Positions 6,587 to 9,500 of a stretch of DNA of 32,000 nucleotides are shown piece after piece (position 1 is the first letter of the stretch; every line of letters starts with the position of its first letter). The notes under the pieces are model-generated. The model searched no databases. It had not been told where the DNA came from and was given only the letters and a program-made list of their open reading frames with translations. Where the stretch lies: the NCBI GenBank assembly GCA_046350815.1, contig JAXLZO010000001.1:600001-632000 (forward strand), read 5' to 3'. The position numbers and the translations under genes are program-made. Source of the stretch: Candidatus Saccharimonadota bacterium. Its GTDB lineage: Bacteria; Patescibacteriota; Gracilibacteria; BD1-5; UBA2023.

Positions 6587-9500
6587 ATGGCACAATACGA
6601 TCATCTCTCTCTCGAAACAAAATGGCAGAAATTTTGGGAGGAGAATAAATCTTTCAAAACTGAGAACGATTTTTCTAAGCCGAAACATTATTGTCTCGAT
6701 ATGTTCCCTTACCCTTCTGGTGCTGGTCTGCATGTTGGTCATCCAAAGGGTTTTGTTGGAAATGATATCTATGCCCGCTACAAACATACAACAGGATATA
6801 ATATTCTTCATCCAATGGGTTGGGATGCTTTTGGTCTTCCTGCTGAGAATTATGCGATTAAGACGGGCGTTCATCCACGTATCACGACGGATCAGAATAT
6901 AGCAAATTACAAGCGCCAGCTCAAATCATTGGGGCTTGCGTATGACTGGGATCGTGAGGTTGATACGACTGACCCAGAGTATTATAAGTGGACACAATGG
7001 ATATTCCTCAAGATGTTCGAGGCAGGACTTGCCTATGAGCAAGATCTTCCGATTAATTACTGTCCATCATGCAAAACAGGCCTGGCGAATGAAGAAGTGA
7101 ATGCAGATCATACCTGTGATCGCTGTGGTACGCTTGTTGAGAAGCGAAAGATTCGACAATGGGTCTTAGCTATTACAAAGTATGCGGAGAGGCTTTTGGC
7201 AGATGTTGATACCCTTGATTGGCCAGAAGGAATCAAAGAAATGCAGAGAAATTGGATAGGAAAGAGTGAGGGATGTGAATTTGAGATGAAGAAATCTGAT
7301 GACCCAACCAAATCAATTCGAGTCTATACTACTCGCATTGATACAGTATTTGGCATGACCTATGCTGTGATGGCACCAGACCATAAAGATGTTGAGCTCT
7401 TCATCACCCCTGAGCATCGTCAGGCATGTGAGAGTTATATTGTATCATCCAAGTCAAAATCAGACCAAGATCGAACGAATGATGCTATTGCGAAAACGGG
7501 TGTATTTACAGGGTCTCAAGTGATTAATCCATACAATGGAGAATCTGTCCCACTTTGGATTGCTGATTATGTCCTTGGGCATTATGGCACTGGCACCGTT
7601 ATGGCAGTACCAGCGCATGATGAGCGAGATTTTGCATTTGCTAAAAAATATAGCTTACCAATTCGTCAGAGTATCCGAACCAAGATACTTTTTGCGGGTC
7701 AGAATGCTGCTCGCAAAGAAGCTGAGACACTTTATCGACATGTAGTCGATGTGATTATTGAAAATCAGAATTGAGAATTTCTTCTCCTCAAAGAATCGAA
7801 TCCTGATTGTTATCACTTTGTAGGTGGTGGCATAGAAGAATGAGAGACCGAGATTGAAGCGTTACGGAAAGAAATCCGCGAAGAAACATGATATACAGAT
7901 TTTGAGATTCTTGGGGAAGTTCCTGGATCCTCGATCGGATCACTCGGATATCGATTTACAAAGTCAAAGAATCAAGATTGTTATGGGCGATTCTTTCATG
8001 TAAAACTCAATTCTGAAGAGAAAATTTATTCGGAGGTTGATGAGGGTCGACATAGCATGGAGTGGTATTCTCGTGAAGCAGTTGCGGAGCTGCTTTCGTG
8101 GGAAAACCATGCATATGCATGGTCGGTATTTCAACATGGTATGAAATGCTTTGCAGATGATGGCTTCTTGGTTGATTCTGTGGAATATACGAATCTTGCG
8201 TCTGTAGACGCTCGTAAGATTCTCACAGACAAAGCAGAGAAAGAATGATTTGGAGAGAAGAAAATCAATTACAAACTTCGTGACTGGCTCTTCTCTCGTC
8301 AGCGTTATTGGGGTGAGCCTATTCCGCTCATTCATATTTCGAATGAAGATTATAATGTACTTCCTCGTTTAAGATCTTCAGATGCTTGGATAGATGTTCG
8401 CACCGAGTGAGAGTTTGTGATGATTGCGGACAAAGAATATTCCAAAGTCTACGATGGTATCAATTCAAAGATCATTATTGATTGGAATCTTCCACTCAAA
8501 CTTCCACAGGTGGAAAAATACGAGCCAGCAGGAGACGGACAAAGTCCACTTGCAACGGTTCCAGAGTTTGTGCATGTGGAGATAGCTCAGAATCTCATAG
8601 GAAAACGAGAGACGAATACGATGCCTCAGTGGGGAGGGTCATGTTGGTATTATCTTCGCTATATGGATCCGAAGAATTCAGAAGAACTTGTATCGAAGGA
8701 TGTTGTGAATTACTGGGGTGAGGTGGATAGCTACGTTGGTGGTGCCGAGCATGCTGTACTCCATCTGCTCTATGCGCGATTCTGGCATAAGTTCCTCTAT
8801 GATATTGGGGTCGTTCCGACGATTGAGCCATTTGCACGCTTAAGGAACCAAGGAATGATTCTTGCTTACGCTTATGAGCGATCGAATGGTGGTCTTGTTG
8901 CTGTCGATCTCGTCGAGGAGCGAGATGGTAAATTCTTTGAAATTGAAACGGGTCTTGAAGTAAAGCGAGTAATTGCCAAGATGAGTAAGAGTCTCAAGAA
9001 TGTAGTCAATCCTGATGATATGATCAGCGAATATGGCACGGATGCACTACGAATGTATGAGATGGTGCTTGGTGATTTTCGTGACAGTGCCCCATGGGAA
9101 CCAACAGGTATTGTGGGAGTGCGAAGATTTCTTGATCGTGTTCACACGACGTTTACCGAGGGTAAAAATATCACAAAAGATGAAATGAAGACGATGAAGC
9201 TTCTCCATAAGACCGTCAAAAAAGTTGGCGAAGACATTGAAGATTACAAATTCAATACAGCCATATCATCACTCATGATTCTTCTGAATGAAGGATTACC
9301 AACAGACAGTGAGTTTCAGACGGAGTGGAAGGAAAAATTCGCTATTCTCCTTCATCCATTCGCACCGCATATGGCAGAAGAGATATGGAATGTATTGGGG
9401 CACAAAGATTCTATTTATGACGCTGAGTGGCCATCGTATGATGAATGGATGCTCATAGATGATGAGGTAACGATCGCAGTTCAGGTGAATGGAAAGCTTC

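What the first reader, a model, noticed from the sequence alone, without database searches (positions are those of the whole stretch)
7700..8250. Nudix hydrolase domain nested inside the editing (CP1) domain of leucyl-tRNA synthetase
Seen: between the conserved LeuRS blocks ...[24 protein letters not shown] and [14 protein letters not shown]...[25 protein letters not shown] the reading frame continues without any TAA or TAG. It encodes about 150 extra residues containing a near-canonical Nudix box, GGIEE[G][15 protein letters not shown][G]Y (G-x5-E-x7-KE-I-x-EE-x-G-Y), preceded by a beta-strand-like [10 protein letters not shown][G]EFLLLKE.
In E. coli LeuRS the corresponding gap is only about 16 residues (LAADGSEPDLSQQALT), so this is a domain insertion and not divergence.
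All five UGA codons of the 1022-codon gene lie in the 7772-8410 segment. None occur in the ~395 N-terminal or ~410 C-terminal codons, so the insert region has a different codon history or weaker constraint.
I know of no described aaRS with an internal Nudix domain. Inference: aaRSs generate aminoacyl-adenylates and, as a side reaction, Ap4A. A cis Nudix pyrophosphatase could hydrolyse mis-activated adenylates or Ap4A, or it could be a moonlighting housekeeping Nudix fused into the gene in a minimal genome. Whether it is catalytic is open, because the REUxEE Arg is replaced by Lys.
Basis: partly seen in the sequence, partly recalled or inferred. Interest (0 to 1): 0.8.

Follow-up and report, generated by a model that had tools for sequence, protein, structure and literature searches.

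The report
Nudix hydrolase domain nested inside LeuRS
The leucyl-tRNA synthetase gene in this window really does carry a complete Nudix pyrophosphatase domain inside its proofreading domain, and this undescribed arrangement is shared by hundreds of LeuRS genes from candidate-phyla-radiation bacteria and some reduced gut Bacilli.

Summary
leuS (6587-9655, + strand, 1022 codons, code 25) is one open frame. A 159-residue segment (residues 373-531) replaces the roughly 18-residue CP1 loop of E. coli LeuRS. It matches Pfam NUDIX (53 bits, cut-off 21.1). Two of its UGA codons fall on conserved Nudix-box glycines.

It is not a one-off or an assembly chimera. The same nested arrangement occurs at the same site in at least 43 GTDB species genomes, mostly standard-code genomes with uninterrupted ORFs. 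It also occurs in 90 of the 120 best database relatives of a CPR (Adlerbacteria) LeuRS that carries the insert.

The three catalytic Nudix-box glutamates are kept in about 127 of 128 nested copies. dN in the insert equals dN in the LeuRS core. AlphaFold models of homologues fold confidently. The nearest solved structures are Ap4A/Ap6A hydrolases, MutT1 and RppH.

Free-standing relatives exist. Two lie immediately upstream of leuS, and several keep a degenerate CP1 scaffold.

No paper describing the arrangement was found. The substrate is unknown. My best guess is a (di)nucleoside-polyphosphate or RNA 5'-end pyrophosphohydrolase.

The parts
6587..9655 (+). leuS coding sequence: 1022 codons plus TAG, translated with code 25 (UGA = Gly). 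One uninterrupted frame encodes LeuRS N-part, Nudix, then LeuRS C-part.
   Evidence: translation, stop and TGA positions. TIGR00396 leuS_bact scores 999.9 bits against a cut-off of 548.4.
6731..6742 (+). HIGH signature (HVGH, residues 49-52) of the class I catalytic core.
   Evidence: motif positions; PF00133.
7247..7684 (+). N-terminal three quarters of the CP1 editing domain (residues 221-366, Pfam PF13603 profile positions 1-143 of 185). It includes the Thr-rich motif TTRIDT (7328-7345) and [15 protein letters not shown] with the editing Asp (7586-7630).
   Evidence: PF13603, E = 1.6e-53; motifs.
7703..8179 (+). Inserted Nudix module (residues 373-531), including its conserved N-terminal linker. 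The Pfam NUDIX envelope is 7733-8101 (residues 383-505). It replaces the roughly 18-residue CP1 loop of E. coli LeuRS.
   Evidence: Homologue models: pLDDT about 90-96 over the domain and 95 for the domain alone. Foldseek probability 1.0 to solved Nudix hydrolases.
7826..7894 (+). Nudix box [23 protein letters not shown] (residues 414-436). The predicted metal-binding and catalytic residues are E429, E432 and E433. K428 stands in place of the consensus Arg. G419 and G435 are encoded by TGA.
7772..7774 (+). In-frame TGA (Gly396). The others are at 7841-7843 (G419), 7889-7891 (G435), 8246-8248 (G554) and 8408-8410 (G608).
   Evidence: G435 aligns with G in 37/37 standard-code homologues.
8156..8326 (+). 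Resumption of CP1 ([14 protein letters not shown]...) and the C-terminal CP1 linker and hinge ([18 protein letters not shown]) that lead back into the catalytic core.
8978..8992 (+). KMSKS signature (residues 798-802).
9197..9514 (+). Anticodon-binding domain (PF08264, residues 871-976).
6482..6511 (+). AT-rich hairpin (ATACTGATTTC / GAAATCAGTAT) followed by a T-run. This is a likely terminator of the upstream gene, which would leave leuS with its own upstream region. A promoter-like site lies at 6534-6561.
   Evidence: Read directly from the sequence. The hairpin was not reported by the consensus scan.
9666..9687 (+). Hairpin (ATCTCCA-GAAA-TGGAGAT) plus T-run, 11 nt after the leuS stop. A likely leuS terminator.
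   Evidence: Read directly from the sequence. Not reported by the scan.

Best explanation
The gene encodes a complete, functional bacterial-type LeuRS. The HIGH and KMSKS signatures, the CP1 Thr-rich motif and the AHD editing motif are all intact. A surface loop of its CP1 editing domain carries a folded, very probably catalytically active Nudix pyrophosphohydrolase domain.

Shown:
- The nesting is real, in frame and under purifying selection as strong as in the LeuRS core.
- It sits at the same CP1 position (Pfam PF13603 profile position about 143 of 185) in a large share of Patescibacteria/CPR LeuRS and in some reduced gut Bacilli-type MAGs.
- The metal-binding glutamates of the Nudix box are almost invariant down to about 22-25 % identity.

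Inferred:
- The LeuRS part charges and proofreads tRNALeu as usual.
- The Nudix module binds Mg2+ through E429, E432 and E433 and cleaves a pyrophosphate bond in a nucleoside-polyphosphate-type substrate.
- The most likely substrates are diadenosine or dinucleoside polyphosphates (Ap4A, a side product of aaRS adenylate chemistry) or the 5'-terminal triphosphate or Np4 cap of RNA (RppH-like).

The module seems structurally, and perhaps functionally, tied to CP1 and LeuRS rather than being a random passenger. Free-standing relatives keep a degenerate CP1 scaffold, and two are encoded immediately upstream of leuS.
For: Real and in frame:
-.
- At least 43 GTDB species genomes show N-LeuRS, Nudix and C-LeuRS in one frame, mostly standard-code genomes with no in-frame stop.
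- 90 of the 120 best LeuRS relatives carry PF00293.
- The distance from AHD to SRQRYWG is bimodal: roughly 40-140 residues in 24 proteins and 200-239 in 89.

Family size:
- 169 representatives of 50 %-identity clusters at E <= 1e-30. Of the top 146, 110 have LeuRS flanks.

Catalytic competence:
- G1, E16, E19 and E20 are present in all 122 box-matched copies. Of the six outliers, five keep the three glutamates and one has E19Q.
- Position 15 in the 122 matched copies is R 92, K 19, A 7, others 4. It is A in the five AEI(K/R)EEAAL outliers and M in the sixth.

Selection:
- pN 0.18 against pS 0.70 in the insert. dN in the insert is 0.21 and in the core 0.22.
- Insert identity tracks core identity (Pearson 0.63).

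Fold:
- AlphaFold2 of homologue P0115 (47 % identical in the Nudix) gives pLDDT 88.9 and pTM 0.79, with the Nudix block at 88-96.
- The domain alone (P0005, 55 % identical) gives pLDDT 95.

Substrate hint:
- The top Foldseek hits are E. faecalis Nudix 2AZW, Aquifex Ap4A hydrolase (TM 0.74-0.79), T. thermophilus Ap6A hydrolase, MutT1/Rv2985 diadenosine polyphosphatase, E. coli RppH bound to Ap4A, and Chlamydia CT771.
- 24 of 27 nested domains hit RppH NCBIfam models best.

Link to LeuRS:
- P0009 (mini-CP1 plus Nudix) lies 17 nt upstream of a Nudix-less leuS.
- P0209 (Nudix only) lies 2 nt upstream of a Nudix-bearing leuS.
- P0203 lies next to what I read as thrS from its product's N-terminal sequence (no domain search was run).
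- Several distinct free-standing proteins keep a CP1 remnant around the Nudix.
Against: - No activity or substrate was tested.
- All functional NCBIfam matches are far below their cut-offs: at most 43 bits against cut-offs of 116 and above.
- Foldseek TM-scores of about 0.7 are typical between any two Nudix enzymes, so they barely discriminate substrates.
- The window copy has Lys for the box Arg.
- About 12 of 128 family members have degenerate boxes (R15 to A, G22 to A, E7 to Q/M/F), so catalysis may be lost in some lineages.
- Close relatives of Nudix-bearing LeuRS lack the insert, for example P0066 (814 aa, 78 % identity over the aligned 46 % of the query). It is therefore dispensable for LeuRS function.
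- CPR LeuRS also host unrelated hydrolases (Ham1, HAD, alpha/beta-hydrolase) at this and two other sites. That favours a permissive-site passenger reading.
- Adjacency of free-standing copies to leuS could be a relic of partial tandem duplication.
- The window protein itself could not be modelled, because the tools refuse the UGA-to-Gly translation. Structural statements rest on homologues.
Confidence: 0.6

Rival explanations
1. Passenger housekeeping enzyme. The CP1 loop is simply a permissive insertion site in an essential, constitutively expressed gene. The Nudix is a general nucleotide house-cleaning enzyme whose function has nothing to do with LeuRS or tRNA. The fusion only guarantees expression and saves regulatory DNA in a minimal genome.
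For: CPR LeuRS carry several unrelated small-molecule hydrolases at three sites:
- Ser_hydrolase/alpha-beta-hydrolase or Ham1 near the start of CP1.
- HAD at or just after the Nudix site.
- A further roughly 190-residue insert after [10 protein letters not shown], read by eye as alpha/beta-hydrolase-like.
- Two or three tandem Nudix copies.

Presence and absence vary among close relatives. Genuine free-standing copies of about 160-190 aa exist with their own start codon and ribosome-binding site.
Against: - Two of the roughly eight free-standing relatives whose context was examined lie immediately upstream of leuS, and one next to what appears to be thrS.
- Several mutually diverged free-standing forms retain a CP1 remnant with the editing Asp lost (AHD to AHI, YHN, MHN or SHI) instead of shedding it.
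- The insertion point is identical across very distant lineages.
Confidence: 0.3
2. Non-catalytic module. The Nudix fold has been co-opted as a structural, tRNA/RNA-binding or nucleotide-sensing domain of LeuRS and no longer hydrolyses anything.
For: The window has Lys for the box Arg. About 12 of 128 members have degenerate boxes, such as AEI(K/R)EEAAL or E7 changed to Q/M/F. No functional subfamily model is matched above its threshold.
Against: E16, E19 and E20 are kept in about 127 of 128 copies, and G1 is present in all 122 box-matched copies, down to about 22 % overall identity. This pattern is expected for a conserved metal site and is not needed for a scaffold. Lys is a conservative replacement and is fixed across a whole clade.
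Confidence: 0.06
3. A third proofreading site. The Nudix hydrolyses mis-activated aminoacyl-adenylates (such as Nva-AMP or Ile-AMP) released from the synthetic site, a form of cis pre-transfer editing.
For: Only circumstantial. The domain sits in the editing domain, and free-standing forms retain the CP1 scaffold and lie near leuS.
Against: Aminoacyl-adenylates are acyl-phosphate anhydrides, not the pyrophosphate-linked substrates typical of Nudix enzymes (established knowledge). The canonical CP1 post-transfer editing site is intact in the window. The insert is dispensable in close relatives.
Confidence: 0.03
4. Artefact. A chimeric assembly, a frameshifted pseudogene, or separate ORFs if UGA is read as stop.
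For: Under table 11 the gene breaks at five TGA codons. Database gene callers did produce truncated fragments of close relatives (P0001 and P0003).
Against: - The same architecture occurs in dozens of independent assemblies, most of them standard-code genomes with one uninterrupted ORF.
- TGA codons fall on conserved glycines.
- TGA is used in frame throughout the window.
Confidence: 0.01

Closest known systems
Canonical bacterial LeuRS (E. coli, T. thermophilus, N. gonorrhoeae; PDB 4AQ7, 2BTE, 6Q89)
   Same: Full-length match to TIGR00396 (999.9 bits). The HIGH, KMSKS, CP1 Thr-rich and AHD editing motifs and the anticodon-binding domain are all present. The homologue model superposes on these structures (Foldseek E about 1e-79, TM 0.7-0.8).
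   Different: None of the solved LeuRS has a domain in the CP1 loop between the LPI..V strand and the G.L.NSG.F segment. E. coli has 18 residues there and the window has 159.
Nudix (di)nucleoside-polyphosphate hydrolases and RNA pyrophosphohydrolase RppH/NudH (PDB 3I7U, 1VC8, 4MPO, 9CXX, 7SP3, 4S2X)
   Same: The alpha/beta/alpha Nudix fold and a Nudix box with the Glu triad. These are the best structural neighbours (TM 0.66-0.79) and the best, though sub-threshold, NCBIfam matches.
   Different: About 16-21 % identity. Bit scores are far below family cut-offs. Lys replaces the box Arg. The domain has a conserved N-terminal linker and is nested in another enzyme rather than free-standing.
Enterococcus faecalis MutT/nudix family protein, PDB 2AZW (structural-genomics entry, function unknown)
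   Same: The closest solved relative by sequence profile (E = 1.5e-12 over the whole domain) and by Foldseek (rank 1).
   Different: It is free-standing, about 21 % identical, and no activity is assigned, so it gives no functional transfer.
Isoleucine--tRNA ligase, N-acetyltransferase domain-containing (NCBIfam NF040702)
   Same: A precedent for a class Ia synthetase that carries an extra enzyme domain. It appeared among the NCBIfam hits.
   Different: A different synthetase and a different accessory fold. Where the acetyltransferase domain sits in that protein was not examined here.
LysRS-Ap4A axis with NUDT2 (Nudix Ap4A hydrolase) and HINT, and the E. coli RppH-DapF complex
   Same: Functional analogies. 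aaRS make Ap4A and a Nudix enzyme removes it; this is established knowledge, not tested here. A Nudix RNA pyrophosphohydrolase also works bound to an unrelated enzyme (PDB 5YGU and 6VCK appear).
   Different: In those systems the partners are separate proteins. Here the Nudix is covalently nested in the synthetase, and no link to Ap4A or RNA ends has been shown.

Membership tests
Bacterial-type leucyl-tRNA synthetase (TIGR00396 leuS_bact) | Whole-protein score above the curated equivalog cut-off | tested here: met
   999.9 bits against a cut-off of 548.4, matched in three stretches interrupted by the insert.
Bacterial-type leucyl-tRNA synthetase (TIGR00396 leuS_bact) | Class I signatures HIGH and KMSKS | tested here: met
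   HVGH at residues 49-52 and KMSKS at 798-802.
Bacterial-type leucyl-tRNA synthetase (TIGR00396 leuS_bact) | CP1 editing domain with the Thr-rich motif and the conserved Asp of the AHD motif | tested here: met
   PF13603, E = 1.6e-53. TTRIDT at 248-253 and VPAHDERD at 341-348.
Bacterial-type leucyl-tRNA synthetase (TIGR00396 leuS_bact) | Leucylation of tRNALeu and hydrolysis of mischarged tRNALeu | not testable with these tools
   Needs enzyme assays.
Nudix hydrolase superfamily (Pfam PF00293) | HMM score above the gathering threshold | tested here: met
   53 bits in the full protein and 57.5 bits for the excised insert, against 21.1.
Nudix hydrolase superfamily (Pfam PF00293) | Nudix box G-x5-E-x7-R-E-U-x-E-E-x-G-U | tested here: met
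   [23 protein letters not shown] matches every position except R15, which is K. K occurs in 19 of the 122 box-matched nested copies.
Nudix hydrolase superfamily (Pfam PF00293) | Alpha/beta/alpha sandwich fold with the box on a loop-helix-loop | tested here: met
   Shown on homologues only (55 % and 47 % identical). pLDDT 95 and about 90-96. A helix lies over the box. Foldseek probability 1.0 to many Nudix structures.
Nudix hydrolase superfamily (Pfam PF00293) | Mg2+/Mn2+-dependent hydrolysis of a nucleoside diphosphate linked to X | not testable with these tools
   Only inferred, from the near-invariance of E16, E19 and E20.
RNA pyrophosphohydrolase RppH (NCBIfam PRK00714 models; YtkD TIGR02705) | Score above the equivalog cut-off | tested here: not met
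   The best score is 43.3 bits against cut-offs of 116-259. YtkD scores 24.8 against 154.4. It is the best-matching named family, but the domain is not a member by this criterion.
Nudix-type Ap4A/ApnA hydrolases | Close structural or sequence similarity to characterised ApnA hydrolases, and a conserved aromatic residue about 16-18 residues after the box (the latter recalled from the literature) | tested here: inconclusive
   TM 0.74-0.79 to Aquifex Ap4A hydrolase and 0.66-0.74 to Ndx1. A conserved Tyr/Phe (Y455) lies 19 residues after the box and is followed by K..N(R/Q). Neither feature is specific enough to assign a substrate.
MutT 8-oxo-dGTP diphosphatase (TIGR00586) | Score above the equivalog cut-off | tested here: not met
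   24 bits against 97.9.

The most novel reading that the evidence does not exclude
The CP1 editing domain of LeuRS in Patescibacteria serves as a docking platform for a second hydrolytic activity that works with the synthetase. The nested Nudix would clear a nucleotide by-product made at, or delivered by, LeuRS: Ap4A/Np4N, Np4-capped or 5'-triphosphate RNA, or a mis-activated adenylate. CP1 plus Nudix would form an autonomous functional module. That would explain why free-standing mini-CP1-Nudix proteins, with the editing Asp lost, persist and are found next to leuS. If so, this would be a new class of aaRS-linked quality-control or signalling activity.
Probability: 0.2. Interest if true: 0.85.

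Novelty: new variant of a known kind. Interest (0 to 1): 0.66.

Why it matters
LeuRS is among the best-studied enzymes of translation, and its CP1 domain is a validated drug target (benzoxaboroles). A second catalytic domain nested in CP1 is conserved under strong purifying selection across a large part of the candidate phyla radiation, and it appears to be unreported.

If the Nudix acts on Ap4A, RNA 5' ends or adenylates, it would link aminoacylation directly to alarmone or RNA-cap metabolism in organisms with minimal genomes.

If it is only a passenger, it still matters. Together with the Ham1, HAD and alpha/beta-hydrolase inserts, it would show that CPR bacteria use surface loops of an essential synthetase to host housekeeping enzymes. 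That is relevant to genome-reduction theory, to protein engineering (permissive insertion sites) and to annotation. These proteins are currently named only "leucine--tRNA ligase" or "class I tRNA ligase family protein", and in code-25 genomes they are often fragmented by gene callers.

Tried and rejected
- Handing the window's own protein to the search of protein representatives failed. I used homologues P0115 and P0005 and sub-sequences of database proteins instead.
- The first word-indexed search with the insert alone found only four proteins, mostly code-11-truncated fragments. The profile version returned only short proteins or fragments. Full-length architectures appeared only when a standard-code full-length LeuRS-Nudix (L010) was the query.
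- "Different codon history" is rejected.
- Assembly chimera, pseudogene and split gene are rejected.
- Assigning a substrate through NCBIfam equivalogs failed. All matches are far below their cut-offs.
- The tRNA scan of the window, run to look for a UGA-reading tRNA-Gly, found none.
- The consensus terminator scan did not report the AT-rich hairpins that flank leuS. They are cited from direct reading only.
- Seven literature searches combining LeuRS/aaRS, Nudix, CPR/Patescibacteria and editing domain found no relevant paper. The library omits most subscription journals.
- No coordinates or PAE are returned for the models. The orientation of the Nudix cleft relative to the editing site, the synthetic site and the tRNA could not be measured.
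Full report
**1. The observation**

The window is a low-GC (about 40 %) stretch in which TGA is common in frame in every plausible ORF. Reading from ATG 6587 to TAG 9653-9655 gives 1022 sense codons with no TAA or TAG.

TGA means glycine here. Codon 435 aligns with a G that is invariant in 37/37 standard-code homologues, the G of the Nudix box "ExG". Codon 419 aligns with G in 20/38 and codon 554 with G in 16/28.

The product is a bacterial-type LeuRS: TIGR00396 scores 999.9 bits against a cut-off of 548.4. HVGH, KMSKS, the CP1 Thr-rich motif TTRIDT and the editing motif VPAHDERD are all intact.

Pfam places a NUDIX domain at residues 383-505 (E = 4.5e-14, 53 bits, gathering cut-off 21.1). 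It lies between the first 143 of 185 profile positions of the LeuRS editing-domain model PF13603 and the remainder of the enzyme. In a MAFFT alignment with E. coli LeuRS, the window has 159 residues where E. coli has 18.

**2. It is not a one-off, an artefact or a recent acquisition**

I scanned one genome per GTDB species using peptide patterns from the insert. This returned 50 loci. tblastn with the LeuRS N-part, the insert and the C-part separately showed the order N-LeuRS, Nudix, C-LeuRS on one strand in 44 of them, and in one reading frame in at least 43 (in L050 the N-part falls in a different frame, and L031 has an additional C-part match in another frame).

By record title these are Gracilibacteria, Peribacteria, Paceibacterota, Parcubacteria, Adler-, Magasanik-, Lloyd- and Staskawiczbacteria, and Saccharibacteria. 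They also include gut MAGs labelled Bacilli, Tenericutes or Clostridium sp. CAG. Most are standard-code genomes in which the whole gene is one ORF without any in-frame stop. This excludes chimeric assembly, frameshift and split-gene readings. The insertion point is identical in all of them.

That scan was biased towards the motif EETGYTDF, so it gives a lower bound. An unbiased view comes from searching with a full-length standard-code orthologue, the Adlerbacteria protein of L010. In that search 90 of the 120 best LeuRS hits carry PF00293. The distance between the AHD and SRQRYWG motifs is bimodal: about 40-140 residues in 24 proteins, 200-239 in 89, and longer in three. The sources name these proteins only "leucine--tRNA ligase", "leucyl-tRNA synthetase" or "class I tRNA ligase family protein".

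A profile of nested Nudix domains searched against 1.84 billion cluster representatives gave 169 representatives at E <= 1e-30 and 974 at E <= 1e-10. Of the top 146 new hits, 110 have LeuRS sequence on at least one side.

**3. Constraint and the UGA argument**

The clustering is real but weak. The span permutation gives P = 0.006, with the region chosen post hoc. For the a-priori insert against the rest, the counts are 3/14 and 2/55 Gly codons (Fisher P = 0.053).

The clustering is also not a property of the insert. In the code-25 relatives L003, L004, L009 and L046, TGA codons are spread over the whole leuS. What stands out is that this genome's leuS core under-uses TGA, 5 of 69 Gly codons against 23 % in the window's ORFs.

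The insert is as conserved as the core. Identity to the closest relatives is 74 vs 72 % for L003 and 66 vs 67 % for L004. Nei-Gojobori dN is 0.21 in the insert and 0.22 in the rest of the gene, with synonymous sites saturated (pS about 0.70). Across 630 pairs, insert identity correlates with core identity (Pearson 0.63). This is consistent with mostly vertical co-inheritance, although the core saturates near 46 % while the Nudix falls to about 22-25 %.

**4. Is it a working Nudix?**

Among 128 nested copies I compared the positions of the box G-x5-E-x7-R-E-U-x-E-E-x-G-U. G1, E16, E19 and E20 are present in all 122 copies that match the pattern. Of the six outliers, five keep all three glutamates and one has E19Q.

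Among the 122 matched copies, position 15 is Arg in 92, Lys in 19, Ala in 7 and another residue in 4. It is also Ala in five of the six outliers and Met in the sixth. The window's Lys (K428) is shared by its whole Gracilibacteria-type clade and is a conservative change.

Near-invariance of the metal-binding glutamates at about 22 % overall identity is what a conserved active site predicts. A minority with degenerate boxes, such as AEI(K/R)EEAAL, may have lost activity.

The tools refuse the UGA-to-Gly translation of the window, so I modelled homologues:
- P0115 is 942 aa and 47 % identical to the window in the Nudix. With an 85-sequence alignment it gives mean pLDDT 88.9 and pTM 0.79. The Nudix block (373-524) scores 88-96 and has the expected strand, strand, helix, strand pattern.
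- The domain alone (P0005, 55 % identical) gives pLDDT 95.
- The full model superposes on solved bacterial LeuRS, none of which has this domain.

**5. What might it hydrolyse?**

By sequence profile, the closest solved protein is the uncharacterised E. faecalis Nudix 2AZW (E = 1.5e-12), followed by lupin Ap4A hydrolase and assorted MutT and ADPRase entries.

By Foldseek, the top of the list is 2AZW, Aquifex Ap4A hydrolase (TM 0.74-0.79), T. thermophilus Ap6A hydrolase, M. smegmatis MutT1 and M. tuberculosis Rv2985 (a diadenosine polyphosphatase), E. coli RppH (including the Ap4A-bound form) and Chlamydia CT771 with Ap4A products.

In NCBIfam, 24 of 27 nested domains match RppH models best and 18 match YtkD. 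All are far below the cut-offs, at most 43 bits against 116 or more.

The domain therefore resembles the (di)nucleoside-polyphosphate/RppH branch more than the ADP-ribose, NADH or CoA branches. It is not a member of any named functional family by the curated criteria. The substrate assignment is an inference, not a result.

**6. Passenger or partner?**

Two sets of facts pull in opposite directions.

For a passenger:
- Close relatives lack the insert, for example P0066 at 78 % identity over the aligned part and 814 aa.
- CPR LeuRS host other hydrolases. Ser_hydrolase/alpha-beta-hydrolase or Ham1 (ITPase-like) domains sit near the start of CP1 (P0062, P0158, P0096, P0136; L009 carries a comparable insert read from its translation).
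- A HAD domain replaces the Nudix or follows it (P0136, P0171; L014 by reading).
- A further roughly 190-residue insert, alpha/beta-hydrolase-like by eye, follows [10 protein letters not shown] in L012 and L027.
- Two or three Nudix copies occur in tandem in P0147, P0180 and P0181.

For a partner:
- The family has free-standing members of two kinds.
- The first kind is 160-190-aa Nudix proteins that keep the conserved pre-Nudix linker.
- The second kind is 260-310-aa proteins in which the Nudix is still embedded in a trimmed CP1. The Thr-rich region is partly kept, but the editing Asp is lost (AHD to AHI, YHN, MHN or SHI).
- Roughly eight free-standing relatives had their genomic context examined. 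P0009 (mini-CP1 plus Nudix) lies 17 nt upstream of a Nudix-less 806-aa leuS. P0209 (Nudix only) lies 2 nt upstream of a 951-aa leuS that itself contains a Nudix.
- P0203 lies just upstream of an ORF that I read as thrS from its product's N-terminal sequence; no domain search was run on it.
- The others (P0004, P0015, P0236, P0305) are not adjacent to an aaRS gene. P0247 sits on contigs too short to tell.

Adjacency to leuS could be a relic of partial tandem duplication. However, several mutually diverged lineages retain an editing-dead CP1 shell, which suggests that the Nudix and CP1 are at least structurally integrated.

**7. Verdict**

It is a lineage-wide, strongly constrained LeuRS variant with a Nudix hydrolase nested in CP1. 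It is present in public databases but, as far as seven literature searches could show, never described or characterised.

I rate it a new variant of a known kind: a known enzyme, a known fold, and a new and widespread nested architecture.

The best-supported mechanism is an active pyrophosphohydrolase of ApnA/RppH-like type riding on, and possibly cooperating with, the editing domain. The passenger-enzyme reading is the main rival. Enzyme assays, a structure with tRNA, and a genome-wide census would decide between them.

Noticed in passing
P0062, P0158, P0096, P0136, P0171, P0147; L009, L012, L014, L027; P0180, P0181: CPR LeuRS host other nested domains besides Nudix. Pfam shows Ser_hydrolase/alpha-beta-hydrolase or Ham1 (ITPase-like) near the start of CP1 (P0062, P0158, P0096, P0136), a HAD domain in place of or right after the Nudix (P0136, P0171), and two Nudix copies in P0147. 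P0180 and P0181 show three Nudix stretches in the representative search. L009, L012, L014 and L027 carry comparable inserts of about 190-200 residues, which I read by eye from their translations as hydrolase-like (L014: HAD-like DxDGV motif; L012 and L027: after [10 protein letters not shown]). At least three insertion hot spots seem to exist.
   Followed up: partly
L054 5001-5831 (P0009) and 5848-8268; also P0247, P0260, P0297, P0305, P0230: Free-standing proteins of about 260-310 aa consist of a trimmed CP1-like editing domain (editing Asp lost: AHD to YHN, AHI, MHN or SHI) with the Nudix inserted at the usual site. In L054 such a gene lies 17 nt upstream of a normal, Nudix-less leuS. I know of no described free-standing LeuRS-CP1 paralogue.
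   Followed up: partly
L001 6001-6927 (P0004): A 308-aa protein combines the CP1 remnant (VPAHIPEHFELAKKYNLPYKQV), the Nudix domain and a C-terminal GNAT acetyltransferase domain. It sits on a low-GC Firmicute-like contig, about 4 kb from tyrS.
   Followed up: no
JGI 3300071358 contig (no DNA held); L059 661-1146 (P0203): Free-standing Nudix proteins of about 160 aa from this family lie immediately upstream of a Nudix-bearing leuS (P0209, 2-nt gap) and about 50 nt upstream of an ORF that looks like thrS by its N-terminal sequence (P0203). In L056 a D-Tyr-tRNA deacylase gene lies about 4 kb from P0015. This may hint at a translation-related neighbourhood, but the sample is too small for statistics.
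   Followed up: partly
window 16378-17070 (+) and 24899-25591 (-): Two ORFs encode identical 230-aa IS1595-family (ISXO2-like DDE) transposases in inverted orientation, each with 10 in-frame TGA. They bracket about 7.8 kb that holds a family-A DNA polymerase domain ORF (18532-19953), a 2H-phosphoesterase/2'-5' RNA ligase-like ORF (20485-21054) and a 942-aa ORF (21445-24273). The layout resembles a composite transposon.
   Followed up: partly
window 18532-19953 (+): The DNA polymerase A ORF (473 aa) covers only the polymerase domain (PF00476). No exonuclease domains are called in the same frame, and an IS copy lies 1.4 kb upstream. It may be truncated or split.
   Followed up: no
window 12667-16212 (-): A 1181-aa ORF with 16 in-frame TGA. 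It has an FN3-like middle part and a long C-terminal array of roughly 23-residue '[17 protein letters not shown]' repeats, leucine-rich-repeat/BspA-like by eye. It is probably a surface protein.
   Followed up: no
window 6587-9655 versus the rest of the window: leuS uses TGA for only 5 of 69 Gly codons (7 %), against 152 of 669 (23 %) over all called ORFs in the window. The conserved core of this essential gene avoids the reassigned codon, whereas relatives such as L009 use TGA for 51 of 83 Gly codons in leuS.
   Followed up: partly
L006, L031, L050, L055, L058: Some related loci have the LeuRS-Nudix gene interrupted: a stop inside the Nudix in L006, frame changes in L031 and L050, and many small ORF calls in L055 and L058. 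These may be sequencing errors (some are long-read assemblies), an unrecognised alternative code, or real pseudogenes.
   Followed up: no
P0068, P0119, P0134, P0140, P0161: NCBI names many Nudix-bearing LeuRS only 'class I tRNA ligase family protein' rather than leucine--tRNA ligase. Code-25 relatives appear in protein databases as code-11-truncated fragments (P0001 and P0003). The architecture is therefore systematically hidden in annotation.
   Followed up: no
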